A stretch of DNA of 64,000 bases, from contig NC_086108.1 of the NCBI RefSeq assembly GCF_963921235.1, forward strand, positions 54,810,001 through 54,874,000. The letters are read 5' to 3'. Source of the stretch: Mobula hypostoma (taxonomy: Eukaryota). The notes under the pieces are model-generated. The model did no database searches and was not told where the DNA came from. It worked only from the letters and a program-made list of their open reading frames with translations. This document shows, one piece after another, positions 56-59,384 of this stretch (positions are counted from its first letter, which is position 1; each line of letters begins with the position of its first letter). Position numbers and translations under genes: made by a program.

Positions 56-139
56 AGAAAAGGCTAGAAATGCTCAAAATCTAGCAGCTGCTGTAAGAAA
101 CAGTTAACTTTTCAAGTTGATGACCTTTCATTAGGACTG
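56..139 (-). repeat. Degenerate PLE terminal-repeat remnant with a decayed hammerhead-like core
   Basis: The reverse complement reads cagtc-ctaatga-aaggtcatcaactt-gaaa-agtt-aactg. This has the same layout as the hammerhead-bearing PLE ends elsewhere in the window, with a different stem II. Confidence 0.45.
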
Positions 140-289
140 TAAAGTAAATATCCTGAGAAAGTGATATAGATTAAGTTTTGATTATCCTGTGTTTGAGTGA
201 AAGTGATTCTCTGTGAATTTTGTCTTATGTTAAATATTTTCTTTGAGGTAAAGTGATTGAGGACTTTATAAACCCAGCTTAGGTATTTA

Positions 290-5540: not shown

Positions 5541-6849
5541 TGTTTGATTTGCACTGCAAATACAATTAATTCTTGGCTTTTCCTCCAACACTGAATATTT
5601 TTGAAGAAACTCTGAAGTTACAGAAAGGATTATATGTGAAGATCCAAATAGTCCAGTGGATTAGGGAGTTTCTTCGAAGAAAGTCAGATTCCTTCGAATG
5701 TGTTAATCAAAGTTACTCTAACTAACGTAACAGTAAAGCAACATTAAAACCATTCACAAAAGTATAGATTGTCAAGTAATCACGTACAATTTTTAAATCA
5801 AGCAATCATCAGTGACATGATCAGAGCAAATGGCTCCAATGATCTTGTCTAATTGGATATCTTTGTGCTTGCTGTTGTGCTCCATTTTGTATGGCTCTTG
5901 ATAGTAGTGTGGAAATTAATGAAAGTCCAAAATGGCCGGTCATCCAAGATAACTTGGTATCAATGATGAATGGACAATTGTTTGTGTGGATTATTCATTT
6001 TGCCTGGATTTAAGCCAAGTTCTGTTATGTTAACCCGTTTCTGTAAATATTTGCAAACCTTTTCTCAAAGTCTTGTGCGTTTCAGATATGTTCTGTCTTT
6101 TGTTAATGGTTCTAACTGTTTCATTGCTCTTTAAATACAATTTATTATTTCAGTCTTGTGGAATTTGTTTCCTATCTTGCTCATTATTTTTTTCTTATAA
6201 AATAGGCACCTTTCAGAAGCTTTTGTAAACATCTTTGGTTAAATTTAAACTACACCAAAAGTGCTATGCAGTGTGCAAAAGGGATTATGTATCCTTCATT
6301 TTCTAGCTATATATTCAGCAAGTTAAGGGTGCACTATCAGAATCAGTTTTATTTTTACAAGGTCATGGACTAAGGATCATTGTTCTAAAGGTATGGTGAA
6401 CTGGCATTCCAATTACTGATTGCTAATTCCTTGTTATAAAAATTCTGAAATTAATTAACAAGATATGGCTGACCTTCACAGGTGCATGATACCTTTGTCC
6501 AGTTCTACATTAGTCAGAGTGATTATGGAGATTATATCATTGAGTATTGGACCCTTGACTGGAATGTTACCAGAATGGCCATCCAGACATCTAGACAAAT
6601 GACTTGGAGATAAGTTTAACCCAGAAGTAAAAATGGGTGATGGAAGTTCATCTTGGCTTCACATATAACTGCAGAGGTTTCATCCTCTGGGAATTGATGG
6701 TTGGAAACAAAATTTCTGGTGGTGGTTAAACGCAACAATTCAGTTCCCAATTTTGGAGGAAAGGGATTAATATTTAGTGTAATGTAATTGATGATGAGAT
6801 ATATGACCTTGTAAAAGATGCTTAAAAGCCATATATTGTGATTCAGCCT

Positions 6850-7410
6850 TCTTTAATGTCATTTCCAGTACAGAAGTGTGAAGGAGAACAAAATAATTGT
6901 TGCTCTGGATCTGATGCAGCAAAAAAAAGATAAAGAACACAATAATAATAGAAAAAAACAATAAATATAAATACATAGCTTATATATTAATTGCATGTTA
7001 TTAAAGTGGCACTATGCACAGGAGTGTCTGTATGTAAGGTTTCTGACAGGAAATGATAAAGTAGTGGTGGTTGGGGTTGTGGTGGGGTGGTTTAGTGGGT
7101 TGATAGAGTCTTACTGCTTGGGGAAAGTAAACATTATTGAGTTTGGTGGTTCTGGCAAAGATGCTATGTAGCCTCCTTCCTGATGGGTGTTGGACAAACA
7201 GTCCATGAGCACAGTGGGATACTTCATGATGTTCCTGGCCTTTTTTCAGCACCTTTCTGTCCTTGGTGCAGGTGATACATTGGGCAGTTTTGACTACCCA
7301 TTGCAGAGCCTTCCTGTGCACCACTCTGCAGATCTGATGCAATGCAGTGATGCAGCTTGTTGAGATGCTGTCTGCCGTGCATCTGTAAAATGAGGTGAGT
7401 ATAGATGTGC
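6850..7410 (-). mobile_element. Rex1/Babar-like LINE 3' fragment
   Basis: ORF 7001-7342(-) has ALQWVVKTAQCIT...HGLF..HPSGRRLHSIFARTTKLNNVYFPQAVRL, a typical C-terminus of this clade. Confidence 0.7.
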
Positions 7411-7682
7411 ATTGTTTGCAGAATTCAAGTTCAGGATTAAAGGAGATGTAATGTGGCTACAAGCTGGCTGAGAGATGGAAAGAGGAGTGGTGACCAGATT
7501 TTAGGCTAGAGGAAAATGTACAGTGATAGGTGCCAAAGGCTGGCAACAGAACAACCTCTGTCTTTCATTTGTGAAAATTAACGCAAAAGCCCATACTTTC
7601 AATGTGATGCTGAACTCAAATACAGAACTCCACTATAAGAACAAAGTGATGGCCAAAGCAACATATTTGTGAAATGGATCAG

Positions 7683-8025
7683 AATCACCAGCATGTGTCC
7701 TGAAATTTGTTATCTTAGCAGCAGCAGTTCAATGCAATACATAATATAGAAGAGAAAAAATAATAAATAAATTACAGTATATGTGTATTGATTAGATTAA
7801 AAATCATGCAAAAAAACACATAATATACATTTTAAAAGTGAGGTAGTGTTCAACGGTTCAATGTTCATTTAAGAATCGGATGGCAGAGGGGAAGAAGCTG
7901 TTTCTGAATATCTGATTGTGTGCCTTCAGGCTTCAGTACCTCCTACTTGATGGTGATAGTGAGAAAAGGGCATGCCCTGGGTGCTGGACCTTTCTGAGAC
8001 ACCTCTCCTTGAAGGTGCCCTGGGA
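7683..8025 (-). mobile_element. Rex1/Babar-like LINE 3' fragment
   Basis: On the minus strand it encodes a degenerate HALFSLSPSSRRY-type C-terminal segment followed by the 3' UTR. Confidence 0.55.
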
Positions 8026-8864
8026 TACACACACAGCAGATGAAACTTTAAGTACCAAACTGTAAAATGATTTTATTTAGGAAGAATGGAAGAAATCAAA
8101 CAGCTAGTTTTAATGGATGCCCAGGAACCAACAGGCTTGGTGATATATGCCGAAAAATCTTTGAAAGTGGCTGAACAACTTGAGAAGGCTGCTAAAATAT
8201 AGAATCGATGTATGAATTTTTCTGGAACACTGGTTTTACCTGAACTAAAACATTCAGTTTTGAGCACTAAACTTTAAGAAACACATCAAAACCTTGGAGA
8301 AGGTGCAAAAGAGATGAGAAATAGAATGCTGATATTCTATTTGTAATTATTCTGTGCAAAGTCTCCATCCTAAATGGATGACTCTTCATAATAAGACTGT
8401 GACCTTTGATACTAGGGAATACATCAGTTCTGCTATACCTTGTGAAATCTCTTCTGAATGTGTAGCTATCGATGAGATCACATCTCATTCCTTTATATCC
8501 TGGCAGGTGTAAATTCAGCTTATGAATCTCTACTCATGCAACAAATCTACTGTACCTTCACAGGAATCTGGTGAACCTTTACTGCAATAATGCAAATATA
8601 TTTCCTTAAGTCAAGAAATCAAATTTGCATTTAATCTTCAAGATGTAGTTTCACCAGGCATCTGTACAGTTCCAGTAAGGCAACTTTTCTCTTGTATTCA
8701 GATAGTACTGTAATAAATTTCAACATACAGTTTCTCCTCCTAATTGCTGGCTGAAATTGTACATTAACTTTCACATACAGTGAGACCCTAATAATGTTTC
8801 GCCAATAATATAATCTACACTTCTGTTTCAGACTTTGTGACTTCCTGATCCTCTCATCTCTCTC

Positions 8865-9930
8865 CATTCACCCCTCCTCGTCTCTTGGCATTTCCTTTGC
8901 AACAATATGAGGTACAGAACCTGTCCCTACACCACCTCCCTCATCACTATCCAGGGACTTAAACAGCCTTTATAGGTGTGGTAGAGATGCATACGCACCT
9001 CTTCTGACCTCTAACTGCATTTGATGATCCCAGTGTGGCCTGCTCCACATCAGTAGGACCAAGCAAAGACCAGGCAACCAGTTTGCTGTTCATTTGCACC
9101 CTTCCCCCCCCCCACCCCCAGAGACATCTTGTGCCTCCAGTGACATGTCACTATTATTCCCCATTCTCACAATGACTTGTTGATTCTAGGCCTTCTGCAC
9201 TGACACAATAAGACCGAATGCAAGAATGGCTCATCGTATTCCACTTGTGTAGCCCGAAACACGATGGTATGAAAACTGAAATTTCCTTTTTCAGGTAATT
9301 CACATGCTCTGTGTTTCTTCCCCACCCTTGCTGGTTCACCCAGGCGCTACCCCCATTTGCTTCCCTTTTCCATTTCTGTTTCTCCACCCACATACCTATC
9401 CACCTGGGCTGCTTTGTCCCAGCCTACCGTTCCTCATGCCTCCCCTCTATCCGTCCATCACCCCTCCCTTATCTGCAGTGTGAACAGCAGCGGGCTGTGC
9501 ACACAGCCTTGAGGAGCACCAGTGCTCAGTGTCTTCAGCATGAGAGATATTGCTGCCCACACTGACTGACCGTGGCTTGGCTGTTAAGAAGTCCAGTGTC
9601 CAATTGTGGGGGGGGGGGGGTGTTGAGACCTGGTAAGGACAGTTTCCCCACCAGTTTCTGGGGCCCGATGGTATTGAACACTGAACTGTAGTCTATAAAC
9701 AGTAGTCTGGCATATGAGACCAACTTGCCTGGTTTCGCCTATTACTTACTAGACCTTGTCTCAGCTCTCCCTTTCATCTGCCCATACTGATTATCTTCTG
9801 TCCACATGCTCAGCCCTGAAGCCGGATCATGACTCATCAATTATTCCTTTGACTCCGCAGATGCTACTTAATTCCTCAAGCATTTTTGTTTGCTCCAGAC
9901 TTTGTCATCTGCGGTCTCTTTGTGACTATA
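8865..9930 (+). mobile_element. Degenerate PLE fragment (GIY-YIG region and 3' end), with a Rex1/Babar RT fragment inserted at about 9480-9720 (-)
   Basis: Colinear with the PLE at 17260-17680. ORF 9535-9723(-) reads [20 protein letters not shown]. Confidence 0.6.
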
Positions 9931-12900: not shown

Positions 12901-13552
12901 ATTTGCCACTTCTTTGCCCATTCCCCTAAACTATCAAGTTTCGCTGCCAGCTCTCTGTTTCCTCAACACTACCCGCTCCTCCACCTATCTTTGTATCATC
13001 GACAAATTTAGCCAGAAATCCATTAAAGCCATAGTCCAAATCATTGACGTGCATTGTAAAAAGCAGCAGTCCCAACACTGACCCTTGTGGAACTCCACTG
13101 GTACTGGCAGCCAGCCAGAATAGGATCCCTTTATTCCCACTCTTTGTTTTTTGCCGATCAGCCAATGCTCCACCCATGCTAGTAACTTCCCTGTAATTCC
13201 ATGGGCTCTTATCTTGCTAAGCAGCCTCATGTGCGGCACCTTGTCAAAGGTCTTTTGAAAATCCAAGTACACCACATCTACTGCATCCCCTTTGTCTACT
13301 CTGCTTGTAATTTCCTCAAACAATTGCAGTAGGTTTGTCAGGCAGGATTTTCCTTTCAGGAAACCATGCTGGCTTTGGCCTATCTTGTCATGTGCCTCCA
13401 GGTACTCCCTAATCTCTTCCCTAACAATCGATTCCAACAACTTCCCAACCACTGATGTTAGGCTAACAGGTCTATAGTTTCCTTTCCTCTGCCTCTCACC
13501 CTTCTTAAATAGCGGAGTAATATTTTCAATTTTCCAGTCATCTGGTACAATG

Positions 13553-15546
13553 TATCAATTCCAAAGAAGAAACATACAAATTAGCCAGAAAAAGCAGCAC
13601 ACCTGAGGACTGGGAGAAATTCAGTGTCCAGCAGAGGAGGACAAAGGGCTTAATTAGGAAAAGGAAAAAAGATTATGAGAGAAAGCTGGCAGGGAACATA
13701 AAAACTGACTGTAAAAGCTTTTATAGGTATGTGAAAAGAAAAAAGATTAGTTAAGATAAATGTAGGTCCCTTACAGTCAGAAACAGGTGAATTGATCAAG
13801 GACATGGCAGACCAATTGAATAACTACTTTGGTTCTGTTTTCACTAAGGAGTACATAAATAATCTTCTGGAAACAGTAGGGGACCGAGGGTCTAGTGAGA
13901 TGCAAGAACTGAGGGAAATACATGTTAGTAGGGAAGTGGTGTTCGGTAAATTGAAGGGATTAAAGGCAGATAAATCCCCAGGGCCACATGGTCTGCATCC
14001 CAGAGTGCTTAAGGAAGTAGCCCAAGAAATAGTGGATGCATTAGTAATAATTTTTCAAAACTCTTTAGATTCTGGACTAGTTCCTGAGGATTGGAGGGTA
14101 GCTAATGTAACCCCGCTTTTTAAAAAAGGAGGGAGAGAGAAACCGGGGAATTGTAGACCGGTTAGCCTAACATCAGTGGTGGGAAAAATGCTAGAGTCAG
14201 TTATCAAAGATGTGATAACAGCACATTTGGAAAGCGGTGAAATCATCGGACAAAGTCAGCATGGATTTGTGAAAGGAAAATCATGTCTGACAAATCTCAC
14301 AGAATTTTTTGAGGATGTAACTAGTAGAGTGGATAGGGGAGAACCAGTGGATGTGGTATATTTGGATTTTCAAAAGGCTTTTGACAAGGTCCCACACAGG
14401 AGATTGGTGTGCAAACTTAAAGCACATGGTATTGATGTGGATAGAGAATTGGTTGGCAGACAGGAAGCAAAGAGTGGGAATAAACCGGACCTTTTCAGAA
14501 TGGCAGGCAGTGACTAGTGGGGTACCGCAAGGCTCAGTGCTGGGACCCCAGTTGTTTACAATATATATTAATGATTTAGATGAGGGAATTAAATGCAGCA
14601 TCTCCAAGTTTGCGGATGACATGAAGCTGGGCAGCAGTGTTAGCTGTGAGGAGAATGCTAAGAGGATGCAGGGTGACTTGGATAGGTTAGGTGAGTGGGC
14701 AAGTTCATGGCAGATGCAGTTTAATGTGGATAAATGTGAGGTTATCCACTTTGGTGGCAAGAACAGGGAAACAGATTATTATCTGAATGGTGGCCGATTA
14801 GGAAAAGGGGAGGTGCAACAAGACCTGGGTGTCATTGTACACCAGTCATTGAAAGTGGGCATGCAGGTACAGCAGGCGGTGAAAAAGGCGAATGGTATGC
14901 TGGCATTCATAGCAAGAGGATTCGAGTACAGGAGCAGGGAGGTTCTACTGCAGTTGTACAAGGCCTTGGTGAGACCACACCTGGAGTATTGTGTGCAGTT
15001 TTAGTCCCCTAATCTGAGGAAGGACATCCTTGCCATAGAAGGAGTACAAAGAAGGTTCACCAGATTGATTCCTGGGATGGCAGGACTTTCATATGAAGAA
15101 AGACTGGATCGACTAGGCTTATACTCTCTGGAATTTAGAAGATTGAGGGGGGATCTTATTGAAACGTATAAAGTTCTAAAGGGATTGGACAGGCTAGATG
15201 CAGGAAGATTGTTCCCGATGTTGGGGAAGTCCAGAATGAGGGGTCGCAGTTTAAGGATAAAGGGGGAGCCTTTTAGGACCGAGATGAGGAAAAACTTCTT
15301 CATACAGAGAGTGGTGAATCTGTGGAATTCTCTGCCACAGGAAACAGTTGAGGCCAGTTCACTGGCTATATTTAAGAGGGAGTTAGATATGGCCCTTGTG
15401 GCTAAAGGGATCGGGGGTATAGAGAGAAGGCAGGTACAGGGTTCTGAGTTGGATGATCAGCCATGATCATACTGAACGGCAGTGCAGGATCGAAGGGCCG
15501 AATGACCTATTGCTACACCTATTTTCTATGTTCCTATGTTTCTATG
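13553..15546 (+). mobile_element. 5'-truncated CR1 (CR1-C) inserted into CR1-B
   Basis: RT ORFs 13792-14517, 14351-15004 and 15065-15466. (ctatgttt)n-type tail. CR1-B sequence is continuous across the insertion, with atg on both sides. Confidence 0.9.
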
Positions 15547-16698
15547 CCAGAATCTATCGATTCTTGAAAGTTCATTGTTCATGCCTCTGCAGTCTCTCCA
15601 TCTACTTCCTTCAGAACCCGAGGGTGCATTCCATCAGGTCCAGGAGATTTATCTACCCTCAGACTATTAAGCTTCCTGAGCACCTTTTCAGTAGTAATTT
15701 TCACTGCACGTACTTTACTTCCCTGACACTCTTTAATGCCCAGTATATTGCAGATGTCTCCCACTGTGAAGACTGATGCAAAATACACATTCAGTTCTTC
15801 TGCCATCTCTGCATCTCTCATTACAATATCTCCAGGGTCTTTTTTTATTGGTCCTATATCTACTGTCAACTCTCTTTTACCCTTTATATAAAAAATCTTT
15901 TAGCATCTTCTTTGATATTAGTCACCAACTTCCTTTCATAATTCATCTTTTCCTTCCTAATGACCTTCTTAGTTTCCTTCTGCAAGTTTTTAAAAGCTTC
16001 CCAATCCTCTATCTTCCCACTAGCTTTGGCTTCTTTGTATGCCCTCTCTTTTGCTTTTACTTTGGCTTTGACTTCACTTGTCAGCCACAGTAGTGTCCTT
16101 CTTCCATTCGAAAATTTCTTCTTAATTGGAATATATCTGCTTGCACTTCCCTCATTTTTTGTGGAAACTCCAGCCATTGCTGCTCTGCTGTCCTTCCTGC
16201 CAGTGTCCCTTTCCAGTCAACTTTGGCCAGTTCCCCTCTCATGCCATTGTAATTTCCTTTATTCCACTGAAATACTGACAGATTGGATTTTAATTTCTCC
16301 TTCTCAAATTTCAAAGTGAACTCAATCATATTGTGATTATTGTTCCCTAAGGGTTCCTAAACCTTAAGCTTTCTTATCACCTCTGGATCATTGCACAACA
16401 CCCATTCCAGCACAGCCGATGCCCTAGTGGGCTCAACAACAAGCTGTTCTAAAAAGCCATCCCTTAGACATTCTACAAATTCTCTCTCTTGAGGTCCAGT
16501 ACTGACCTGGTTTTCCCAATCCACTTTCATGTTAAAATCCCCAATGATTATCATGACATTGCCCTCCTGATATGTCCTTTCTATCTCCTGCTGTAATTTG
16601 TAATCCGCATCCTGGCTGCTGTTTGGAGGCCTGTATACAACTGTCATTCGCGTCCTTTTACCCTTGCTATTTCTTAACTCAACCCATAGGGACTGTAT

Positions 16699-16851
16699 CT
16701 CACAGCTATCTGGACTATTCCTCTTCTCACCCTGTCACTCACAGCTATCTGGACTATTCCTCTTCTCACCCTGTCCTCACAGCTATCTGGACTATTCCTC
16801 TTCTCACCCTGTCCTCACAGCTATCTGGACTATTCCTCTTCTCACCCTGTC
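16699..16851 (+). repeat. Four identical 38-bp tandem direct repeats at the PLE 5' junction
   Basis: Unit ctcacagctatctggactattcctcttctcaccctgtc at 16699, 16738, 16776 and 16814, with one extra A at 16737. Confidence 0.97.
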
Positions 16852-17983
16852 TCTTGCAAAAACGCCATCCCCTTCTCGCAATTCCTCCGTCTCTGCTGCA
16901 TCTGCCCTCAGGATGAGGCTTTTCATTCTAGGACGAGGGAGATGTCTTCCTTTTTTAAAGAAAGGGGCTTCCCTTCCTCCACTATCAACTCTGCTCTTAA
17001 ACGCATCTCCCCCATTTCACGTACATCTGCTCTCACTCCATCCTCCCACCACCCCACTAGGAATAGGGTTCCCCTTGTCCTCACCTACCACCCCACCAGC
17101 CTCCGGGTCTAACATATTATTCTCCGTAACTTCCGCCACCTCCAACGGGATCCCACTACTAAGCACATCTTTCCCTCCCCTCCCTCTCTGCATTCCGCAG
17201 GGATCGCTCCCAACGCAACTCCCTTGTCCATTCGTCCCCCCCATCCCTCCCCACTGATCTCCCTCCTGGCACTTATCCGTGTAAGCGGAACAAGTGCTAC
17301 ACATGCCCTTACACTTCCTCCCTTACCACCATTCAGGGCCCCAAACAGTCCTTCCAGGTGAGGCAACACTTCACCTGTGAGTCGACTGGGGTGATATACT
17401 GCGTCCGGTGCTCCCGATGTGGCCTTTTATATATTGGCGAGACCCGACGCAGACTGGGAGACCGCTTTGCTGAACATCTACGCTCTGTCTGCCAGAGAAA
17501 GCAGGATCTCCCAGTGGCCACACATTTTAATTCCACATCCCATTCCCATTCTGACATGTCTATCCACGGCCTCCTCTACTGTAAAGATGAAGCCACACTC
17601 AGGTTGGAGGAACAACACCTTATATTCCGTCTGGGTAGCCTCCAACCTGATGACATGAACATCGACTTCTCTAACTTCCCCTAAGGCCCCACCTCCCCCT
17701 CGTACCCCATCTGTTACTTATTTTTATGCACACATTCTTTCTCTCACTCTCCTTTTTCTCCCTCTGTCCCTCTGAATATACCTCTTGCCCATCCTCTGGG
17801 TCCCCCCCCCTTGTCTTTCTTCCCGGACCTCCTGTCCCAAGATCCTCTCGTATCCCCTTTTGCCTATCACCTGTCCAGCTCTTGGCTCTATCTCTCCCCC
17901 TCCTGTCTTCTCCTATCATTTTGGATCTCCCCCTCCCCCTCCCCCTCCAACTTTCAAATCCCTTACTCACTCTTCCTTCAGTT

Positions 17984-18019
17984 AGTCCTGATGAAGGGTC
18001 TCGGCCTGAAACGTCGACT
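17984..18019 (+). ncRNA. Minimal type-I hammerhead ribozyme motif in the PLE terminal repeat
   Basis: agtc-CTGATGA-a-gggt ctcg gcct-GAAA-cg-TC-gact. Stem I agtc/gact, conserved core boxes, short stem II, palindromic ACGT at helix III, GUC cleavage triplet. Confidence 0.75.
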
Positions 18020-21000
18020 GCACCTCTTCCTACAGATGCTGCCTGGCCTGCTGCGTTCACCAGCAACCTTGATGTGCGTTGCTTGAATTTCCAGCATCTG
18101 CAGAATTCCTGTTGTTTCCATAGGGACTCTACACCTTCTGATCCTACGTCATCCCTTTCTGATGATTTAATATTATTTTGTATACACAGGGCCACACCAC
18201 CCCCTCTGTCTTGTAACCTATCTTTCCGATATACCATATATCCTTGGATGTTCAGCTCCCAGTGGCAGCCAAGTTTCAGAGATGGGCACAATGTCATACT
18301 TGCCAATCTGTAGCTGAATTTCAAGATCGTCTATTTTCTTCCTTACACTGCGTGCATTCAAATATAGCACTTTCAGTCCAGTATTTGTTGCTTTCTGTCT
18401 TAACTGCACCACACCTCTATTGCCCTGTAACTCATCCTACTGGCTGCGATTATGCCTCATCTCCTGCCTGTCCTTTCTATCATCTCTGTTGCACGCTATC
18501 TTTGATTTATTTCTGTTTTTCCCCTTCCTCAGCCCTATCACTCTGGTTCCCATCCCCCTGTAAATTAGTTTAAACCCTCCCTAACAGTTCTATTAAACCT
18601 GACTGCTAGGATACTGGACCCCTTTGAGTTCAGGTGTAACCCTTCCTTTTTGTACTGGTCGTACCTTGCCAGAAGAATCCCAGTGATCCAGGAACCCAAA
18701 GCCCTGACCCCTACACCAGTCTCTTAGCCATGCATTAATATGCCTGATCATGCTATTCTTGCGCTTGTTGGCACTGGCACAGGCAGCAATCCTGAGATTA
18801 CTATCCTGGAGGTCCTGCTTTTCAGCTTTCTCCCTAACTCCCTCAGTTCTCTCTTCAGGACCTCCTCCCATGAGAATGCCTTGGTGAGCAGGATTACAGA
18901 AGAGTCCAAGGTATTCTACAGGTATATGAAAAGCAAGATGTGAGAATAGGTCCAATCAGGTGCAATAGTGGAAACATGTGAATGGAGTCGGAGGAGGTAG
19001 CGGAGGTGCTTAATGAATGCTTTGCTTCAGTATTCACCAGGGAAAAGGACCTTGGCAATTGTGGGGATGACTTACAGCAGATTGAAACACGAGCATATGG
19101 ACATTAGGAAAGAGGATAAAGCACTAAGTTAGATAAGTCGCTGGATCTGCATGAGATATACCCCAGGCCTCTGTGGGAAGAGAGGGAGGAGGTTGCTGAG
19201 CCTCTAGCAATGATCTTTGCATCATCAATTGGGATGAGAGAAGTACCAGAGGATTGGAGGGTTGCAAATGTTGTTCACTTGTTCAAGAAAGAGAGCAGAG
19301 ATGACCCAAGAAATGACAGACCAGTGGTGAGCAAGTTGTTGGAGAAGATCTTGAGAGGCATGATTTATGAGCATTTGGAGAGACATAATCTGATTAGGGA
19401 TCGTCAGCATAGCTTTGTCAAGGACAGGTTGTGCCTTATGAGCCTGATCTAATTCTTTGAGGATGTAAGAAAACACATTGAAGGTAGAGCAGTGGATGTA
19501 GTGTATATGGATTTCACTAAGGCATTTGATAAGGTTCCCCATGCAAGGCTCATTCAGAAAGTAAGGAGACTTTGCTTTGTGGATCCAGAATTGGGTTGCT
19601 CACAGAAAGCAAAGGGTGATTGTAGATGGTTTGTATTCTGCATGGAGGTCGGTGACCCCAGGGATCTGTTCTGGGGACATCCCCCCCTTTTGTGATTTTT
19701 ATAAATGAGCTGGATAAGGAGGTAAAAGGGTGAGTTAGTAAGTTTGCTGATGACACAAAATTTTGGGGTATTGTGGGTCTGGAGGGTTGTCAGAGGTTAC
19801 AGTGGGACATCAACAGGATGCAGTACTGGGCTGAGAAGTGGCAGATAGATTTCAACCCAGATAAGAGTGAAGTGGTTCATTTTGGTGGGTCAAATTTGAA
19901 GACAGAATATCATATTAATGGTAAGACTCTTGCAGTGTGGAGAATCAGCGAGATCTTGGGGTTCGTGTCTATAGGACACTCAAAGTTGACAGTACTGTTA
20001 AGAAGGCGTATGGTGTGTTGGCATTCATCAATTGTGGGATTGAGTTCAAGAACCCTGAGGTAATGTTACAGGTATATAAGACCCTAGCTAGGCCCCACTT
20101 GGAGTACTGTGTTCAGTTTTGGTCACCTCTCTACAGGAAGGATGTGGATACTATAGAGAGAGTGCAGAGATTTACAAGGATGTTGCCTGGATTGGAGAGC
20201 ATGCCTTTATAGGTTGACTGAACTTGGCTTTTCCTCCTTGGAGGGACAGAGGATGAAAGGTGACCTGATAGAGGTGTATAAGATGATGAGGGGCATTGAC
20301 TGTGTGGCTAGCCAGAGGCTTTTTCCCAGGGCTGAAATGGTTAACACAAGGGAGAATAGTTTTACGGTGCTTGGAAGTAGGTATAGCGGGGATATCAGAG
20401 GTAAGTTTTTCACTCAGAGGGTGGTGCGTGTGTGGAATGCACTACCAGTAATGGTGGTGGAGGTGGATACAATAGGGTCTTTTAAGAGACTCTTAGAGAG
20501 ATACTGTACATGGAGCTTAGAAAAATAGAGGGCAATGCGGCAGGGAAATCCTAGGCAGTTTCCAGAATAGGTTACATATTTGGCACACCATAGTTGATCT
20601 AAGGGCCTGTAATGTGCTGCATATTTCTATGTTCTATTGAAGTTGTCTCATTGGGACTTTTTTTCTTTCACATTAACCAATCCTCAGCCATGTCACTATA
20701 TTATCTCTAATACTATGGTTCTAATTTTGTTTAATAATCTCTTAAATGGTAGTTTATCACCTGTATGGATTTATGCAAACACAAATACAACATATCAGTA
20801 GGCTTACCTTTATCTTTTCAGCGTTTTCCAATCTTAAATGGTTACAAGAGATTTGTCAAACCTGATTAACCTTCCTTCCATCCATATCGAGTCTGTTCAG
20901 TCCGATCATTATTTCCCAAGTTCACGATTACCTCTTATTTTATGGCAGATTCTAAGTGATTGCTTTATCAGGAATATCACAGTAATTCGTCTATAATTCT

Positions 21001-23002: not shown

Positions 23003-23148
23003 GAAGAGACTACAGATGCTGGAATCTAGAGCAATAAAAACAACAGCTGGAGGAACTCAGCGGGCGAGGCAACATTGGGAGGAAAATGGACAGTTCCCTC
23101 TCAGATGTTGACTGATCAACTGAGTTTCTTCAGTTTATGTTTTGATTT
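23003..23148. repeat. Older inverted PLE terminal-repeat remnant
   Basis: cagatgctggaatctagagc...ggaggaactcagc followed by an inverted ctgagtttcttcag. It hosts the younger insertion at 23150. Confidence 0.5.
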
Positions 23149-23149
23149 G

Positions 23150-23270
23150 TCCTGACGAAGGGTCCCGGTCCGAAACGCCGACTTCCTATAGATGCTGCCT
23201 GGCCTGCTGCGGTCACCAGCATTTTCTGTGTGTGTTGCTTGAATTTCCAGCATCTGCAGATTTCCTCGTT
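23150..23270 (+). mobile_element. PLE-derived mini-element (about 120 bp) with a hammerhead motif; cleavage triplet mutated to GCC
   Basis: gtc-CTGACGA-agggtcccggtcc-GAAA-cg-cc-gac. TSD tttat(g/a)ttttgatttg at 23134-23149 and 23271-23286. Confidence 0.8.
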
Positions 23271-24789
23271 TTTATATTTTGATTTGCTTGGTTTTCATTT
23301 AACAGGGATAAAGTGTGGTACTCACTACCGTGAGAAAAAATGTTTCAAATAAGCAATTAGTTTCTCAATTACTAAGAAAACATGTGTTGAGTGTGGATGA
23401 GGATTCTTCCTCAAGATCTTAAGCTGTAACTTATTTTTGGTAGAGCCAATTTCTCAAGTGGCTTCTAAATGTCATTACACAAATCCATATCTGAGGCCTA
23501 TAGGGAGACGTGTTGGGCCAAAAGCTTGATAAAGGAACTGGATTTTAATTCAGGGATTCAGATAGATTTAACAAGTGAAGGCTGTCAATGAAAAACTAAT
23601 AAAGTTGATGAACTCCAAGGGTAGAAATTTTTTTTGAGTGGAGAAAATTACAGAGATGTTGATCAGCTTTTAAAACAGATAACTAATGTGAAGATAATGC
23701 AGGCTGGTATGAGTTGGCATACGGGCAGCAGTGTTTTAAATTGATTTGAGTTTTTGTATGGCGGGAGAATGCTTTCAACTGGGAGTTCACTGGAATAGTC
23801 AAACTGAGAAGAGACAAAGTTGTGATTGGTTGTTTCAGCACCTAAGGTGTATATAAGGGTTGTTATACGTAGGGAGTGATATATTTGGTTTGGGATTGGA
23901 AACTCAACTTTGAGTCAGATAGGATGTCAGGGTCCGGTTTCTCTTTGATATTCTGAATGGTTGAGTATGGCTCTTAAGAACAAAAATTGTGGTGAGGTAT
24001 TGACCTTTTCATTTTTTATTGAACGATATTAATGCCCATAGTGTATAGTTTATCAGGCAAATAGTGACGTTAGAGGGAGCCAGACAGTCCAAGTATTTTG
24101 ATGGACATGTTATTGATAACTTGCCAGATGCAATAAATGGAGTGGCTAAATCAAAAAATTTAAGATTTCTTAAAGCAAATTGCATTTGGCTGAAATGATT
24201 GAATTCCTGGAGATAATGGAGAAGGCTAATCAAGGAAATTTAGTGGGTGATTTCTAGATGTTAGGAATACATTCAGTAGCATAACACAGGAGCCAAGAGG
24301 ATGTTGGTTAAGTATTGGCTCAGTGGAAGAAATTAAACTGTAAAGCTCAGAGGATGTTTTTCTCTCTTCAGGACCTCCTACCATTTCCGAATATGTCATT
24401 GGTTCCAATATGTACCACGTCTTCTGGCTGTTCTTCTTTCCCCTTTACAATGCTGTAGACATGACCCTAGACGTTTCTGACCCAGGCACTTGGGGGGCAA
24501 AATACCGTCTGGGTGTCTTTATTACATCCACAGAATCTATTGTCTGCTCCCCTAACGATGGAAACCCCTATCACTACTGCATTCCTCTTTTCCCTCCTTC
24601 TCTTCTTAGCCACTGAGACAGACTCAGTGCCAGTGACCTGCTCACTGTGGCTTTTCCTTGATAGGTCAATCCCCGCACCCCCCCGCCCCATCAGTATCCA
24701 AAGAAGTATACTTCCTGAGGGGAACTGTCAGAGGGGTACGCTGCACTGGCTGCCTATTTCCTTGCCCTCTTCTGACAGTCACCCAGGTA

Positions 24790-32859: not shown

Positions 32860-33217
32860 TATTTAAAAGGTTCATTTTATTATCAATGTATGCAGAATAC
32901 AACTCTGAAATTTGTCTTCTCCAGATAGCCATAGAATACAAAAACCATACAAGTAGTTGAAAGAAAGGTGTCAATCCCCCCCTTTACAAAAAGATAGAAA
33001 CAAAAATTCACAAGCTGCTAACACGTTCAACCCCTCTCTCGCACAAAAACTAACAAATCACCCAACCCCAAGCCCCTAATACACAAAAAAGAATGGTGAG
33101 AACATGTAAAAAACATAGAATTGAAAGAAGCCAATATGAACTACAGTCCAATCTATAAATCTCAGAATTTCAATATATTTATTGATAGGTTTCAGAGAGC
33201 TTTTTAAGTGTCAATCA

Positions 33218-33291
33218 ACAGGAATTCTGCAGATGCTGGAAATTCAAGCAACACACATCAAAGTTGCTGGTGAACGCAACTTTGATGTGTG
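33218..33291 (-). mobile_element. 74-bp PLE 3'-end insertion with fold-back
   Basis: 14-bp TSD ttaagtgtcaatca (33204-33217 and 33292-33305). Perfect 18-bp inverted repeat at 33250-33267 / 33276-33293. Confidence 0.85.
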
Positions 33292-44814: not shown

Positions 44815-45845
44815 CAGTCATCAAACCTGCAGACAAGGGTGATTGTATTGTGGTCTGGCAGACTGATTACTACCTTCTAGAGGCCTACCAACAGCTCTTG
44901 GATACCTCCTCTTATCAACCCCTAGACTATGATACCACCGACAAACTCCAGGTCATCATCTTATGCACTGTCAAAGATGTCATCACATCAGAAGATCTCC
45001 CTTCCATGGCCTCTAAACTAATAGTTCCTCAACCATGCACTTGCCACTTTTACTTTTTGCTGAAGGTTCACAAACAGTACTGTCTTGTTAGGCCCATTGT
45101 TTCTGCCTGCTCTTGCCCCACCAGACCTGTCTCCAAATATATTTGCTCCGTCCAGTCTCCCCTTGTTCAGACCCTTCCTAACTACTGGGACATTTTGCAT
45201 GCCCTCTACCATATGGACAACTTCACACTCCCCGGCCTCATCTTCTCCATGGATGTTCAGTATTTATACACCTACATCCAGTTTGGAAGATGCAAGATCC
45301 TCTACTTCTTTCCAGCACAAAGATCCAACCAGTTACCCTACACCAGCACTGCCATTGGCCTGGCTGAACTTGTTAGAACTATGCCTGTCCTTTAGTTAGC
45401 TATGGAGAATGATCTCTGTTCCAAAACTGTTGGTACCACTCCTCCAAATCTTTCTCTGTTACGTTGATGACTGCATTGGTGCTATTTCTTGCATTGATGC
45501 AGAACTCATCAATTTTATCAACTTTGCCACCAACTTCCACCCTGTTCTCAAATTCACGTGGGCCATTTCTGACACCTCTTCCTTTTTTTCATTTCCCCTG
45601 CATCTGTTGCCCACCTCATTTCTCTCAATGCGAGTGGTTCCCATGCTCAGTTGCTTATCAGATTTTGGCATTGGTAGCTTTTGGTTTTCCTGCTACCTGC
45701 CTTCATTAGTTGTGTCCAGTTTTCATCTAGAGCTATGAAGAAAGATTTTTGACCTGAAAATTGGATTGTCCATTTTCATCCATACATGCTGTCTCAGACT
45801 GCTTGTGTTACTGCAGATTGCAACACCTGCAGTCTTCTGTGACTC
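44815..45845 (+). mobile_element. Degenerate PLE, RT fragment and terminal remnant
   Basis: IKPADKG..IVVW, KVHK...RPIVS, FSMDVQYLYT and YVDDCI (ORFs 44745-45395 and 45409-45738). Confidence 0.8.
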
Positions 45846-46479: not shown

Positions 46480-48400
46480 CTGCCTAGCCCCATTGACCCT
46501 CACCTGGACTGTAGCCCTCCATACCCCTCTCAACTAAGTACTTATCCAAACTTGTGTCGCAGTAAAAACCGCATCCACCACTCCTGCTGGCAGCTCGTTT
46601 TGCACTCATGCCACCTTCTGAGTAAAGAAGTGTCCCTCAGCTTCCCTTTAAATATTTCATCTTTCACCCTATCCCTATGACATCTGGTTCTAGTCTCACT
46701 GAACCTCTGTGGGAAAAATCTTAAACACAAGGGAAGCTGCAGATGCTGGAAATCCAGAGCAACACACACAAAATGCTGGAGGAACTTGACAGGTTAGACG
46801 GCATCTATGAAAATGAATAAATTGTTGACGTTTTGAGCCAAGACCCTTCATCCGGACTGGAAAGGAAGGGGGAAAACTCCAGTATAAAAAGTTGGGGGGA
46901 GGGGAAAGATGACAAGCCAGAAGGTGGGTGGGGAAGGTACCCAATATCCAACACAACATTCTCCGCAATTTCCACCATCTTTAAGAGAATCCTACCACCA
47001 AACACTTCTTTACTTCCTCCCACCCTACTTTCCACTTTCAGCAGGGATTGCTTCCATGCTTCCTTTGTCCTTCTGTCCCTCCCCGCTAATCTGCTTCCTA
47101 CAAGTGAGAGAAATGCTTCACCTCCTCCCTAAACCTCCATTCAGGGCCTCAAAACAGTCCTTCCAGGGGAGGCAACACTTTGTCTGCAAATCTGTTGTTA
47201 TCTATTGTATCTGGTGCTTCAGATGCTGCCTCCTCCATATTGGTGAGTCCTGACTTAAATTGGGGACTGCTTTGTTGAGCATCTCCACTCCATTCATCAA
47301 AAGTGGAATTTCCTGGTGCCAACCATTTTAATTCCTATCTCCATTCGTGTTCCATCATGTTGGTCCATGCCGTTGTCTTCTGCCACGATGAGGCCACTTA
47401 GGGTGGAGGAGGAACACCATGTATTCTGTCTAGGTAGTCTCTAATCTAATTACAGGAACACTAATTTCTCCTGGTTTTTTTTTCTCTTCTTTTTCCTTCC
47501 CCCTTCTCTCTTCTTCTATTCCTCACTTTCCTGTTACCTCTTCTCCTTACCCGCTGGTCACCTTGCTCGGTGCCCCTCCTCCTTCCCTTTCTCCCATGGT
47601 CCAATCTACTATCAGATTCCTTCTTCTCCAGCCTTTTGCTTTTTCCACTCACCTGGCTTCACCTATCATCTTCTAGCTTTACCTCTTTCCACTCTCTCAG
47701 CTTTTTACTCTGGCATTTTCCCCCTTCTTTTCCAGTCCTGATGAAGGGTCTCAGCCCAAAACATCAACTGTTTATTCATTTTCAAAGATGCTGAGTTCCT
47801 CCAGCATTTTTGTGTGTTCTGTGGAGAAAGGCTGTTGCCTTTACCCCATCTATACCTTTCATAATTTATATATTTCTATAAAATCTCCCCTTATTCTCCT
47901 CTGCTTCAGGGAATATAATCCTAGGCTATTTAACCTGTCTTTATAACTTAGGTCCTCATGTTCCAGCAGCATCCTTATAAGTTTTCTTTGTTCTTTTTCA
48001 ATTTCATTGATAATTTTCTTACAGGTAAGTGACCAGAACTACATACAATACTCTGAATTTGGACTCACTAATGCCTTGTGTCACTTCAACATAACCTCTC
48101 AACTTTTGTACTTCATTTTCTGATTTATGAAGGCCATTATGCCAAAAGCACTCTTTCTGACCCTCTATGGCCCTATCTTCCTAAGGCACCATCTTCAAGA
48201 AATTATGGATCTGTATTTCCAGATTCCTCTGTTCTACTGCACATCTCAGTGCCTTACTGTTCACTATGCAAGTTCTGCCCTGGTTTGTCCTCCTGAAGTA
48301 CAACACCTTAGACTTGTCCGCTTTAAGTTCCATCTGTCAATTTTTCTAGCAGGTCCAAATCCCTCTGCAAGCTTTGAAACCCTTTTTCGCTATGCCTCCA
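46480..48400 (-). mobile_element. CR1 3' fragment hosting a PLE insertion
   Basis: Minus-strand CR1 3' region at 46480-46717, resuming at 47818. Confidence 0.7.
46718..47817 (+). mobile_element. PLE fragment with an inverted upstream terminal repeat
   Basis: 46722-46935 is an inverted copy of the 3' end, followed by a GIY-YIG remnant (VIYCIWCFRCCLLHIGES) and a direct 3' end. Imperfect TSD tctgtgggaaaa / tctgtggagaaa. Confidence 0.78.
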
Positions 48401-50430: not shown

Positions 50431-50898
50431 TACAGGAGTATCTGTGCAGAAGATGACTCTGACAAGAAATGATACAGAGCGTGTGGTGGGGTGGGTTAGT
50501 GGATGGAGGTATTGATCAGCCTCACTGCATGGGGAAAGTAACTGTTTCTGAGTCTGGTGGTCTTAGCATGGATGCTGTTTTGTCTCCTCTTCAGTGGGAG
50601 TGGGACAAGCAGTCTATGAGCAGGCTGTTGAAGTGCAGTTGCCTTTGTGGAATAATCTAAAACAAGAGCTTCAGGTTAAAGAGTTACTGATTTAAGACAT
50701 AAAAAGGGAGGAACATCTTTTCCCAGAATGCTCCCACTCTTTTTCCCCAGAGAACTGTATTGTTGAATGTATTTAAGACCGAGATAGATTTTGCACTGAA
50801 GGGTAATTGCAGGTTATTGTGTACAGGTAGTAAAATGGAGCTGAGGCCAACATCAAGCCAGCTAGGCTCTTTTTGAATGTCAGAACAGTTCCTACTTA

Positions 50899-51139
50899 AA
50901 CACGAGGAAATCTGTAGATGCTGGAATTTCAAGCAACACACATAAAAGTTGCTGGTGAATGCAGCAGGCCAGGCAGCATCTATAGGAAGAGGTACGGTCG
51001 ATGTTTTGGGCTGAGACTCTTCGTCAGGACCTTTCATCAGGGTCCTGACGAAGGGTCTTGGCCTGAAACATCGACTGTACCTCTTCCTATAGATGCTGCC
51101 TGGCCTGCTGCGTTCACCAGCAACTTTTATGTGTGTTGC
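50899..51139. mobile_element. 241-bp palindromic PLE-derived element with two divergent hammerhead motifs
   Basis: 14-bp TSD acagttcctactta (50885-50898 and 51140-51153). 99-bp inverted arms at 50933-51031 and 51041-51139. Confidence 0.9.
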
Positions 51140-52690
51140 ACAGTTCCTACTTATGTTGTACTCTGTCCATTTTATCAATCTGAGCAGTTCTATGTCTTTT
51201 ACCTCTTATTTCACCATTATTCTGAGACACATGTCATGTGCAAGTTTCCTTCTGCCATTCACAAAGCACCTTGCTGCTTTGATGTTTGTCTTCCCTCTAC
51301 TTTGCTGCCTATTCCCCATAACTGATTCCACTTTAGGGCAATATCTATTACTCTACATTTCTTTTCAGTTGTGTTTTAGCCATTCGACTGGTAGCACTCC
51401 TCCTTATGAATCCCAGGTTTGTGTGTTTCTCACTCTCACTTAAAAATTCCTGAGTGAGTCAGAGATGCTAAACGGATGCACTGTGGTGGTACTTCGGTGA
51501 AAAAGAACTGAGTTATCCCAGTGTTGTGGCAAGAAAGGGGAATAGAAACTTTGGATGGAAGCATTTATATTGTTGGTTTATGTAGGGAACAAGTAGAGAA
51601 GCCGAGTAAAGAGGAAGATTTTGGGAGTGGCAAATCTGAAGTATGGGAGAAAAAGTAGTGAGAGAAGCCATTTCAGGATGAAGGCAGGATGAAGGCAGAA
51701 GGAAAGCTGGAGTAAGTTTGGTGAGTAAGAGGAAGGGTGTAAAATCTGATGACAGTCATGGTGATAGAAGTCCATGCCTTCTCTACTTAGAATTTAGGGA
51801 TGTTAGATAGATTTAAGAACTCGGTGGTGTAGGAAAAAGTGTCTTGGATGATTGTTTTCCTCTCTTCTGAGGAGAAGGTGCATCATCTATCACCTTGGTA
51901 CTTGACAGTTGAATGGTGTTTTGAAGGTTGGGTTGTCAAATTGTGCTTTACTGTGGAGTATGAGAGAGAGAGCAAGGGAGAATAATTGGGAACACCTGCT
52001 TCTAGAAGATTTTCAAATGTCTGAGAGTCGTCCACCAAGCTGGGTGTAGTCTAACTTGAACAGACTTTGGTCTACTTAAACAGGAAATGTTAAGTTTTTT
52101 TCTAGTTTTATTTTTAAAGTACAGTTCATTATTTATTTGGAAATCAAATAAAATACTTCTAAATTAATGTATTAAAAGGAGCAAGTACTTTAAGCATGTT
52201 ATGTCTTAATTATGAAAATTACAAGTAATGAGGTTTGAAATGTTTCATAATTGGGTGAGGGAAGGTAGTGGGGGCTGGAACAATAATCTGTTGATGACTT
52301 TCATGTTCCAGGATGTGAATGGTTACTACAGTATTTGATTAGTTCTTAACTATCTGAAAGAATCTTGGTCAACACCAAAATGTTACAGCTAACTTGAACC
52401 AGAAACACACTCAATGTGTTCTTTGTACAGGGTAGCCTTAAGCAATGTTTTTGAACTGCAGTGGAAAGGCATTTTTCATATAGCCTTTGTAATAGAATAG
52501 CTGTTCTGGGCAGAATATTATTACCAATAAAAAAGCCAGATTGTCATGGCTGGTATCGATTCCTGGCTCTAGTACAACAAATTTATAGAAAACTGCTGGC
52601 TGAATTTGATCTATGTTTTAAAGGTAGAAATTAAAATAAAAATAGGCTGCATTGATGAAAAGGATTATGCAGTGATTAACTTATTTACCA

Positions 52691-52785
52691 ACATACATCA
52701 AAGTTGCTGGTGAACGCAGCAGGCCAAGCAGCATCTATAGGAAGAGGCGCAGTCGACGTTTCAGGCCGAGACGCTTCGTCAGGAC
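52691..52785 (-). mobile_element. PLE-derived mini-element (about 95 bp) with a hammerhead motif
   Basis: TSD acttatttacca (52679-52690 and 52784-52795). The minus strand reads agtc-CTGACGA-agcgtctcggcct-GAAA-cg-TC-gact. Confidence 0.87.
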
Positions 52786-53810
52786 TTATTTACCATTCTG
52801 TTTTCTTTTCCCTGTTCAATAAACATGATAAAACTTAAATTATATACTCAAATTTTAGGAAATATATTTTTGGGATTATAAGTAAATTACATAATTTCAG
52901 TCTAAAATGACAAGCAGTTGTGAAGGAGAATCAAGGAACTAATTTCTGAAAGGATTTAGAATTTGGCTGGCCTTAAGCTGTTCAAAAATCCTAACAAATA
53001 CATTACTTAAATTATAGGATTTTAAGGAATTGAAGGACTGAAAGGCACCATTTAATCCCTCATAGCAAAGTAGAATCAACTCAATGCATGTCCTTTCCCT
53101 TTCAGCTTGATTTATTAATTTGGTCTTTATCAAATATTTATCCACTTTTGAATTCAGCCTTCATCATTGTTTCTAGTGAAAATTTTGCATCCTTCTAACC
53201 TCCTGAAAGATGTAATATTTTCTATCCTTTCATTAATTATGTTACAAATTTACATTTCACGTTTTGTAGTGGAATTGTTTTTTCATCTTTTATCTTTAAA
53301 AAGAGTAGTCGTAATTTGAGTTCAATTGGGTATACATTTAACTTTTTAATGGGAAGGGTCCAACGTTTCCCTTTATCTTTATTCCTGGTATCTTTCAGAA
53401 ATATCTTTTGTACCCTTATTGTGGCTATTGTTGTGTTTAAATACAGGTGGAACATTCCATTCTCCTTGCTATCAATTAGAAAGATCAGTAAGTGAGAATT
53501 ATTTGAATCAGAGCAGAAAAGAAATTGAATGGGTAATTGAAAGATGTTAACCAGGCTAGTTATCCAAATGACTTTGCAGGTGAAGGTCGAGATTAGTAAC
53601 ATGGAGTTGGATGGAAGGGAATATTTGGATCATGTCAAGCCAATGTAGTTCACCAAATTCTGAATTAATTTTTGTAATTATATTATAAAATCCTACATTC
53701 TCATTTATTTATCATTGAAATTGGATATGTAAACTTCTCATGCTGTAGTTACATCCACTTGTTACTGGATGGTGCTAAAGTGCTTCATTTGGGGGAAGAT
53801 GTAATTATGG

Positions 53811-58041: not shown

Positions 58042-59384
58042 GTTTGCCAAGTTTTCCATTACCATTTTAAATGTGAACATAAAAACTTAAAGGAAAAATC
58101 TGACAGAAGATTTGCAAGCATATCTTGGCATAATTAGTTTGCTATGGAATGAATTGCAGGACCACTAATTTACAATGACTGTTACTAAATTCTGCTTGTA
58201 AAAAGATATTGATACTTTATCTTGCTATTTGAGAATTCCATATTACAATCAATAATACTCTGAAAATTAGGCGAATGTGATTTTTGCATATTCTTTTCCC
58301 TTTAACTCATTTTAAAATATCTTTTCCATTGCTTTAAAGTTGTGAATGCAGAGTAACTTTGTAAGCACATGCACCAATTGCATAGTAGGAAGTTGTTGAG
58401 GATATTAGGAGAAAAAAATGCTGGAAGAGCTCAGCAGTTTGGGCAGACTGTTTGGAGAGAGAACTGAAATTTATGTTCCCAATTTGATAATTGAGAACTG
58501 ATGAAAGTTTATTGGCCTGAAATGCTAAATCTGTCTATTTTCACAGATCATGGAATTACTGGTAATTAGAAATATATAGAAGGAAATTTGTTTCATCATC
58601 TACTTAAGTTGTTGCTGGGATAGGAAATGGGTATCTACCTACTGGGATTTGGGAGAGACGACAGTGTTTTGTCATTATGAACTAGAAGTCTGCTTCACTC
58701 AAGGATTTGCTCAAATTCAACAAGAGGAACATCAGCAAAGGCAATAACAGGTATGCTGTGATTAGCCTGTTTAGTTTTCTGTCTCAATTTCTTCAGAAAT
58801 GAACAATGTGAATTTTACTTGAATTAAGAATTTGCTGTTTATCCTGCAATTATACTTCCATTTTCCTGTATGAATAAGTAGAATTTCATGGAAGAGACGC
58901 ATAATTCACAGCTAACAGAATGATGCTGTTCTATCATGGAAATGTGAGATGCCAGGATGTTTTTTGAACTGTTCATTTAAAAAAAACTACACTCTGTTTT
59001 TGGATTTTGGTCCTGACGATCAAGAGACATGTGTAAGAGAGAAAGGCTATTCACATCATTTCTTTACTGATCCTTCTAATTAGATCCCATAGTCCATTTC
59101 TTTTCCTTTCATAGTATCTAGCCAATATCTCAGGATCCTTCTTTTCATTATTGAACTACTGGTCACATTGTATGGTAATTTGTATGAAAAACCTCCTAAC
59201 ATTGTTATTACATTTTGCCTTTTACTGGTATGAACATGTATATCTTTGAAGTTCTTGTTTCATATAAAGTGAAATTTGAGATTTTATTGTGATTATTATC
59301 TCCAAAGTGTCTGCTTTAATAGCTGATCAACAACTTCTGATTCCAGTAACATAATTTAATGATCCATATGGATATTTTAATTCC

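What the first reader, a model, noticed from the sequence alone, without database searches (positions are those of the whole stretch)
17984..18019. Minimal hammerhead ribozyme in the PLE terminal repeat, dispersed in many copies
Seen: agtc-CUGAUGA-A-GGGU(CUCG)GCCU-GAAA-CG-UC/gact. Related cores occur at 23152(+), 47738(+), about 46825-46857(-), 51045(+), about 50998-51030(-) and 52751-52786(-). Older variants near 101-139(-), 45735 and 58498 have a different stem II sequence. Established: CUGANGA/GAAA/NUH is the hammerhead core, and minimal type-I hammerheads with a palindromic helix III that work as dimers are known from PLE terminal repeats. Inference: a very abundant ribozyme-bearing retroelement family in this lineage. 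Several inactivating changes look like CpG decay (cgaaa to caaaa, acgt to acat).
Basis: partly seen in the sequence, partly recalled or inferred. Interest (0 to 1): 0.75.

Follow-up and report, generated by a model that had tools for sequence, protein, structure and literature searches.

The report
Minimal hammerhead in Penelope retrotransposon end
This is a known kind of tiny ribozyme-shaped motif in the end repeat of a very abundant Penelope-type jumping gene; it likely cuts RNA only in the parent element, paired or helped by protein, and the added detail is that many copies start exactly at its first base, which likely marks where the element's RNA begins.

Summary
Observation confirmed. 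17984-18019 is a minimal type I hammerhead motif (helix I AGUC/GACU, CUGAUGA, extra A, 4-bp helix II, GAAA-CG-UC; predicted cut after 18015). It lies 300 nt after the GIY-YIG stop of a 5'-truncated Penelope-like element (16695-18117, 11-bp target duplication). G000 holds 45,139 exact matches to a 34-nt pattern (control 0). In longer copies the motif also sits 170 nt before the ORF start, so it is in the pseudo-LTR. The kind is published (Cervera and De la Pena 2014), and this scan noted it before in at least 21 genomes. Cleavage was not shown: the monomer is predicted to misfold, 47 of 57 sampled copies were copied through the uncut site, and the excess of 5' ends at the cut site is mostly microhomology. 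One extra point: 5' ends spike at the first base of helix I (1,033 versus 50 at a control base), likely the transcript start. Verdict: new member of a known kind, low interest.

The parts
17984..18019 (+). Minimal type I hammerhead motif; predicted cut after 18015; ACGT palindrome 18011-18014 in place of helix III
16695..18117 (+). 5'-truncated Penelope-like element copy (RT thumb, Cys linker, GIY-YIG, 3' UTR, hammerhead, tail)
16684..16694 (+). Left target-site duplication (11 bp)
18118..18128 (+). Right target-site duplication (11 bp)
16699..16851 (+). 38-bp unit x4 at the 5' truncation junction, made of element coding DNA (likely template slippage)
17280..17306 (+). CX4CXXC linker motif (Neptune/Nematis type)
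   Evidence: PMC8557442 passages
17388..17684 (+). [quoted passage not shown]
   Evidence: Pfam GIY-YIG E 1.8e-4
17685..17983 (+). Pyrimidine-rich 3' UTR / upstream part of the pseudo-LTR
18020..18117 (+). Rest of the pseudo-LTR; copies end near 18068-18095 or, with the ~35-nt tail, near 18117
23146..23273 (+). Short copy; U16.1 changed; older inverted copy at 23010-23094 (-)
33213..33278 (-). Tail-only copy without the hammerhead
46723..47770 (.). Older PLE piece: endonuclease remnant 46943-47441(+), decayed motif 47734(+), inverted motif-tail copy 46723-46869(-)
50887..51139 (.). Head-to-head pair of short copies (51030-50887 -, tailed; 51042-51139 +, untailed)
52689..52786 (-). Short untailed copy starting at helix I; one helix II mismatch
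44904..45770 (+). Old PLE RT remnant 44904-45579 followed by decayed motif near 45735
101..143 (-). Decayed copy of the older long-loop family
58492..58540 (+). Decayed motif of an older family

Best explanation
The motif is a minimal type I hammerhead carried in the pseudo-LTR of an abundant Penelope-like retrotransposon, and it likely cuts only in the parent element's RNA, as a pair or with the element's protein, while the window copy is likely an inert passenger. Shown: the position 300 nt after the endonuclease stop and 170 nt before the next start codon; covarying helices; two preferred 3' ends about 35 nt apart; and a 5'-end spike at helix I's first base. Inferred: transcription starts at that base or 4 nt before it; the element's reverse transcriptase primes internally about 99 or 135 nt in, copies uncut RNA and often runs off the 5' end, which leaves the many 100-135-nt stubs; full transcripts carry one motif at each end of a ~3.45-kb unit, and their ACGU palindromes would pair to form helix III and release a unit-length RNA in a minority of molecules.
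For: GIY-YIG and RT domains upstream. The motif and tail stand at a fixed distance before the ORF start in 16 of 30 loci anchored on the ORF's 5' part; ATG at +171. Core-only search behind the endonuclease end of 33 distant relatives: 14 with a core; in 10 non-redundant ones helix I pairs at 33 of 40 cells (permuted mean 17.7, 1 of 20,000) and helix II at 30 of 30 (mean 26.0, p 0.012). In 15 hand-picked rows 8 of 8 pairs show two-sided change, 92.5% of cells pair, 0 of 500 shuffles reach that, and slid registers give 11-43%. Older family: U-A replaces the C-G inner helix I pair in 22 of 25 long-loop loci. 3' ends: 37 of 57 at +85..+112 and 17 at +125 or beyond; 11 of 13 head-to-head pairs have exactly one tailed copy, as described for PLEs (PMC11167929, PMC8557442). 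47 of 57 copies span the cut site. 5' ends: 1,033 at +1, 306 four bases upstream, 50 eight bases upstream, equally built patterns. The monomer MFE is a rod pairing GAUG/GACG with CGUC, -8.2 (window) or -10.0 (L057) against -6.0 kcal/mol for the open-core fold. Published: min-HHRs are silent as monomers and weak as dimers (PMC4209133); the anole Poseidon HHR cuts only with protein, and uncut RNA is the dominant insertion substrate (PMC11167929).
Against: No cleavage was measured and no footprint of it was found. 17 of the 33 distant relatives showed no core within 450 nt (several loci are short or decayed) and 2 only a loose match. The rows were partly chosen by a descriptor that demands pairing. 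In the small sample, tailed and untailed short copies agree better in length (p 0.61) than in 5' position (p 0.055), so part of the broad pile-up may depend on length. About a quarter of the listed +1 junctions share 1-2 nt with an inverted partner (by eye). No excess G precedes +1 (first 50 of 100 listed rows: A 17, C 17, G 16, by eye), so a cap signature was not seen.
Confidence: 0.8

Rival explanations
1. The dispersed copies are themselves active ribozymes that cut host transcripts (introns, UTRs), in cis or by pairing between neighbours, and so shape the host transcriptome.
For: About 57 young copies per Mb; 30 of 44 keep core, NUH and palindrome.
Against: Changes follow neutral CpG decay. 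The monomer is predicted to misfold, with helix probability 0 to 0.08 in context. Neighbouring copies are mostly head-to-head, so one transcript would carry one sense and one antisense copy. Published min-HHR monomers are inactive (PMC4209133).
Confidence: 0.07
2. The fold is kept not for cutting but as a structural signal (protein binding, promoter or template-end element), and cleavage is incidental.
For: No cleavage footprint. HHR mutants do not affect insertion in vitro and no RNA reads end at the cut in anole (PMC11167929). Naiad PLEs spread without canonical HHRs (PMC8557442).
Against: All catalytic core bases and the NUH triplet are invariant across relatives at 45-55% protein identity while the helices turn over.
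Confidence: 0.1
3. The short motif-bearing copies form a separate non-autonomous family (retrozyme or SINE) with its own RNA cycle, rather than dead-end stubs of the full element.
For: About half of the sampled copies are under 200 nt. Animal retrozymes are reported to derive from PLE pLTRs (bioRxiv 10.64898/2026.07.22.740005). One 119-nt head-to-tail joint appears in contigs of runs X1, X4 and X5.
Against: 5' ends form a continuum up to full length and share the element's two 3' ends. There is no tandem array of the motif in the window and only one three-piece cluster in the 1-Mb sample.
Confidence: 0.03

Closest known systems
Minimal hammerheads (min-HHR) in pLTRs of metazoan PLEs (Cervera and De la Pena 2014, PMC4209133)
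   Same: Type I core, extra nucleotide between 9 and 10.1, 4-bp helix I without a defined loop, palindromic 15.2-16.2 (CG) and no helix III, U-rich 5' flank, mostly solitary dispersed copies, many sequence families.
   Different: Helix II is short (4 bp). The youngest family mostly has G10.1-U11.1 (27 of 44) rather than G-C (15 of 44). Copy number is far higher than the ~4,000-9,000 reported for coelacanth and Xenopus. No shark or ray appears in the supplement file searched (file 1 not searchable).
Neptune/Nematis-type EN+ Penelope-like elements (PMC8557442)
   Same: C-terminal GIY-YIG with Cys pair, CX2-5CXXC linker, DKG motif, partial tandems, inverted 5' copy, 30-40-nt tail at one end.
   Different: Neptune versus Nematis not resolved here (no reference tree). 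No strong microsatellite targeting seen in the listed flanks.
Poseidon element of Anolis carolinensis, PAc (Frangieh et al. 2024, PMC11167929)
   Same: pLTR hammerhead near the ORF start; two internal start sites for reverse transcription giving the tail; uncut RNA as template.
   Different: In PAc the ORF starts inside the HHR and priming is within the ORF; here the start codon is 138 nt past the cut and both 3' ends lie before it. PAc's clade lacks the Cys linker.
Animal non-LTR retrozymes (bioRxiv 10.64898/2026.07.22.740005)
   Same: Type I HHR of PLE pLTR origin; reported in one chondrichthyan.
   Different: Those are tandem arrays with a motif in each unit; these copies are dispersed or head-to-head ends of a coding element.

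Membership tests
PLE min-HHR (type I) | Core CUGANGA ... GAAA ... NUH | tested here: met
PLE min-HHR (type I) | Helices I and II that covary between families | tested here: met
PLE min-HHR (type I) | Extra base between 9 and 10.1; palindromic 15.2-16.2; no helix III | tested here: met
   extra A invariant in 15 of 15 rows; CG in 11 of 15, TA in 1, TG or CA in 3
PLE min-HHR (type I) | G10.1-C11.1 pair | tested here: inconclusive
   G-U in the window copy and 27 of 44 young copies, G-C in 15; G-C in 12 of 15 family rows
PLE min-HHR (type I) | Located in both flanking repeats of the element | tested here: met
   16 of 30 loci have it before the ORF; relative L264 has it on both sides of a 989-codon frame, 3,066 nt apart
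PLE min-HHR (type I) | Self-cleavage as dimer or with protein | not testable with these tools
   no raw RNA reads offered
EN+ Penelope-like element | Single ORF with RT and C-terminal GIY-YIG bearing CCHH | tested here: met
EN+ Penelope-like element | Partial tandem, inverted 5' copy, optional 30-40-nt tail, variable target duplication | tested here: met
Neptune clade | CX2-5CXXC linker between RT and EN | tested here: met
   CKRNKCYTC at 17280-17306; shared with Nematis
Neptune clade | RT phylogeny with named references | not tested
   no named reference set was on hand
Canonical hammerhead families in Rfam | Gathering score for a hammerhead model | tested here: not met
   expected for a minimal motif
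Non-LTR retrozyme | Tandem repeats with a motif in each unit | tested here: not met

The most novel reading that the evidence does not exclude
The element's transcript starts at the first base of the hammerhead, so the ribozyme is the RNA's first 36 nt and works as a switch: uncut capped RNA is the reverse-transcription template, while protein- or partner-triggered cleavage strips the capped 32-nt leader 138 nt before the start codon, to silence or circularise it. The thousands of genomic stubs would be a fossil map of that start site.
Probability: 0.3. Interest if true: 0.5.

Novelty: new member of a known kind. Interest (0 to 1): 0.22.

Why it matters
What PLE hammerheads do in cells is still open (PMC8557442, PMC11167929). 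This family does not settle it, but its estimated 2 x 10^5 young copies record where reverse transcription starts and stops. They show uncut templates and a sharp 5' end at helix I, which gives a defined RNA (start, two priming sites, cut site, start codon) for a direct test in a second PLE clade. As a discovery of a ribozyme class it is ordinary.

Tried and rejected
Rfam: no match at gathering score in the window and no hammerhead family at E up to 10 around the site. Monomer stability: z -0.09 against shuffles, uninformative. Cleavage footprint: apparent 5' ends at the cut site (+33) number 163 against 30 (+31) and 37 (+35), but about three quarters of the 100 listed rows are inverted junctions sharing GACT or GAC, helix I being itself a 4-nt inverted repeat. 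Only about 8 of 100 have unrelated flanks (by eye), and another 4-nt microhomology junction is at least as common (4 of 100 listed); rejected as evidence of cutting. Splicing: a branch-point/pyrimidine/AG-like stretch precedes helix I and another follows it, as in D. virilis Penelope, but no GT..AG joint was among the 15 listed joints in either laying (14 and 18 joints not shown), and the spikes start at the A of AG rather than after it; not supported. Expression: no RNA holder listed; the runs laid are contigs with guessed type, so nothing on expression or RNA ends follows. Cap G before +1: not seen. Sequence look-up in earlier findings was blank. One search had two rows with wrong coordinates and was replaced.

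Full report
Coordinates: +1 is window 17984 (first base of helix I); the predicted cut lies between +32 and +33.

Observation. The other sites named are all present; only the 17984 copy keeps core, both helices and the ACGU palindrome together. The motif exceeds chance in the window (17 loose matches, shuffle mean 7.5, 0 of 100 reaching 17) and in the window plus a 1-Mb sample of five 200-kb blocks of G000 (38 descriptor hits; 0 reversed; 0, 1, 0 shuffled). G000 holds 45,139 exact matches to a 34-nt pattern and 61,232 to a 29-nt pattern just downstream, controls 0. The sample has 57 copies at 85% identity or more, about 2 x 10^5 if extrapolated; the family covers 2.3% of the sample at that identity. 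Rfam does not score it.

Context. The motif starts 300 nt after the TAA (17682-84) of a frame with a GIY-YIG domain (E 1.8e-4, just under the curated cut-off) and a CX4CXXC linker. The window copy runs 16695-18117 between 11-bp duplications, is 5'-truncated, and has a 38-bp coding unit repeated four times at its 5' junction. Longer natural copies carry RT and GIY-YIG in one frame. Of 30 loci anchored on the ORF's 5' part, 16 have motif and tail at a fixed distance upstream (15 of them aligned), with the ATG at +171. This is the partial tandem that makes a pseudo-LTR; the unit is about 3.45 kb (from the overlap). The closest named proteins are from rays (77-93% identity) and sharks, with marine invertebrate relatives near 50%, so the host is likely a ray.

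Covariation. Within G000 an older long-loop family has U-A where the young family has C-G at the inner helix I pair: T at +4 in 22 of 25 long-loop loci, against C in 5 of 5 short-loop loci (the pattern fixed the 3' A and barred G). Among 80 metagenome loci for relatives of the protein, 10 of 28 with enough downstream DNA had a sense motif and none an antisense one. A search for the core alone, without asking for pairing, in 33 loci found 14 cores, 2 loose matches and 17 blanks; in 10 non-redundant cores helix I paired at 33 of 40 cells (permuted mean 17.7) and helix II at 30 of 30 (26.0). On 15 hand-picked rows all 8 pairs show two-sided change and 92.5% of cells pair, 0 of 500 shuffles, slid registers 11-43%; this set leans towards pairing by its selection.

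How copies are made. 3' ends fall at +85..+112 (37 of 57) or +125 and beyond (17 of 57), and 11 of 13 head-to-head pairs have exactly one tailed member (the same split in 30 further loci). This is the PLE tail, which Frangieh et al. tie to two internal start sites of reverse transcription (PMC11167929, parts 1-2 of 4 read). Both sites lie downstream of the cut, and 47 of 57 copies span it, so their templates were uncut or re-ligated. Apparent 5' ends at +33 are 163 against 30 and 37 at +31 and +35, but most listed rows are inverted junctions using the GACT or GAC microhomology, so this is no footprint of cleavage. By contrast, equally built patterns give 1,033 ends at +1, 306 four bases upstream and 50 eight bases upstream, with varied flanks. 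Both peaks are an A after pyrimidines, as in an initiator (consensus recalled, from no call), and start at, not after, an AG. I infer run-off at the transcript's 5' end. Against this: no extra G (A 17, C 17, G 16 in the first 50 of 100 listed rows, by eye), some 1-2-nt microhomology, and a small-sample hint that short copies share length rather than position. I had seen the broad pile-up myself; the single-base test followed notes from earlier agents.

Mechanism. Shown: anatomy, position, covariation, end distributions, CpG decay. Predicted: the monomer folds into a rod that buries the core (-8.2 or -10.0 against -6.0 kcal/mol; helix probability 0-0.08 in 181 nt), although 3 of 6 distant relatives fold with both helices and an open core. 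From the literature: min-HHRs show no monomer activity and low dimer activity (PMC4209133, parts 1-2 of 4 and supplement file 2 in part); the anole HHR cuts only with protein and is not needed for insertion in vitro (PMC11167929). Inferred: cutting occurs in a minority of parent transcripts, by pairing of the two ACGU palindromes or with the element's protein; dispersed copies such as this one are inert. No RNA evidence was obtainable.

Known and new. The kind, its place in pLTRs, its presence in fish Neptune, Poseidon and Xena elements and its mass dispersal are in PMC4209133. PLE architecture and clade motifs are from passages of PMC8557442 and PMC3846280; passages of PMC6155905 were also seen. 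The 2026 preprint (parts 1-2 of 5 and passages) reports HHR retrozymes in one chondrichthyan. Five searches returned no paper describing this shark/ray family or a start site at helix I; the library lacks most subscription papers, Repbase was not available, one supplement file of PMC4209133 and the preprint's supplements could not be seen. The scan itself has 68 notes in at least 21 genomes with these words. Verdict: new member of a known kind; interest 0.22.

Noticed in passing
window 16699-16851: A 38-bp piece of the element's own RT-thumb coding DNA is repeated four times at the 5' truncation junction, next to a 4-nt match with the target duplication; likely repeated template slippage.
   Followed up: partly
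L264:1024-1061: In this distant relative the first ATG of the 989-codon frame straddles the predicted hammerhead cut site (A is position 17).
   Followed up: no
window 18013-18018: The cut site sits in a 6-nt palindrome (GUCGAC; GUUAAC in the older family) that could form a competing duplex between two RNAs (-10.3 kcal/mol predicted against -1.7 for ACGU); not kept in invertebrate relatives.
   Followed up: partly
window 18036-18086: A 16-codon upstream ORF lies between the cut site and the main start codon in young copies; pyrimidine-AG stretches resembling splice acceptors flank the motif.
   Followed up: partly
L288:950(-), L307:727(-): Hammerheads with the U3-A8 core variant, belonging to other elements in metagenome loci.
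   Followed up: no
window 454-2306 (+), 12985-15466 (-), 20157-20528 (+): CR1-like LINE fragments (Pfam RVT_1 E 3.5e-27 for 972-2303; family name recalled).
   Followed up: no
window 54011-54589 and 56439-56927 (-): Broken frames resembling Gypsy-type LTR retrotransposon integrase and RT (by eye from the ORF list).
   Followed up: no
P0001, P0004: Ray gene models named as host genes (divergent protein kinase domain 1C, chitinase domain protein) include long stretches of this element's protein; exonisation or annotation error.
   Followed up: no
L057:1041-1159: A 119-nt head-to-tail joint of motif plus tail appears in contigs of three runs; probably one genomic tandem.
   Followed up: no
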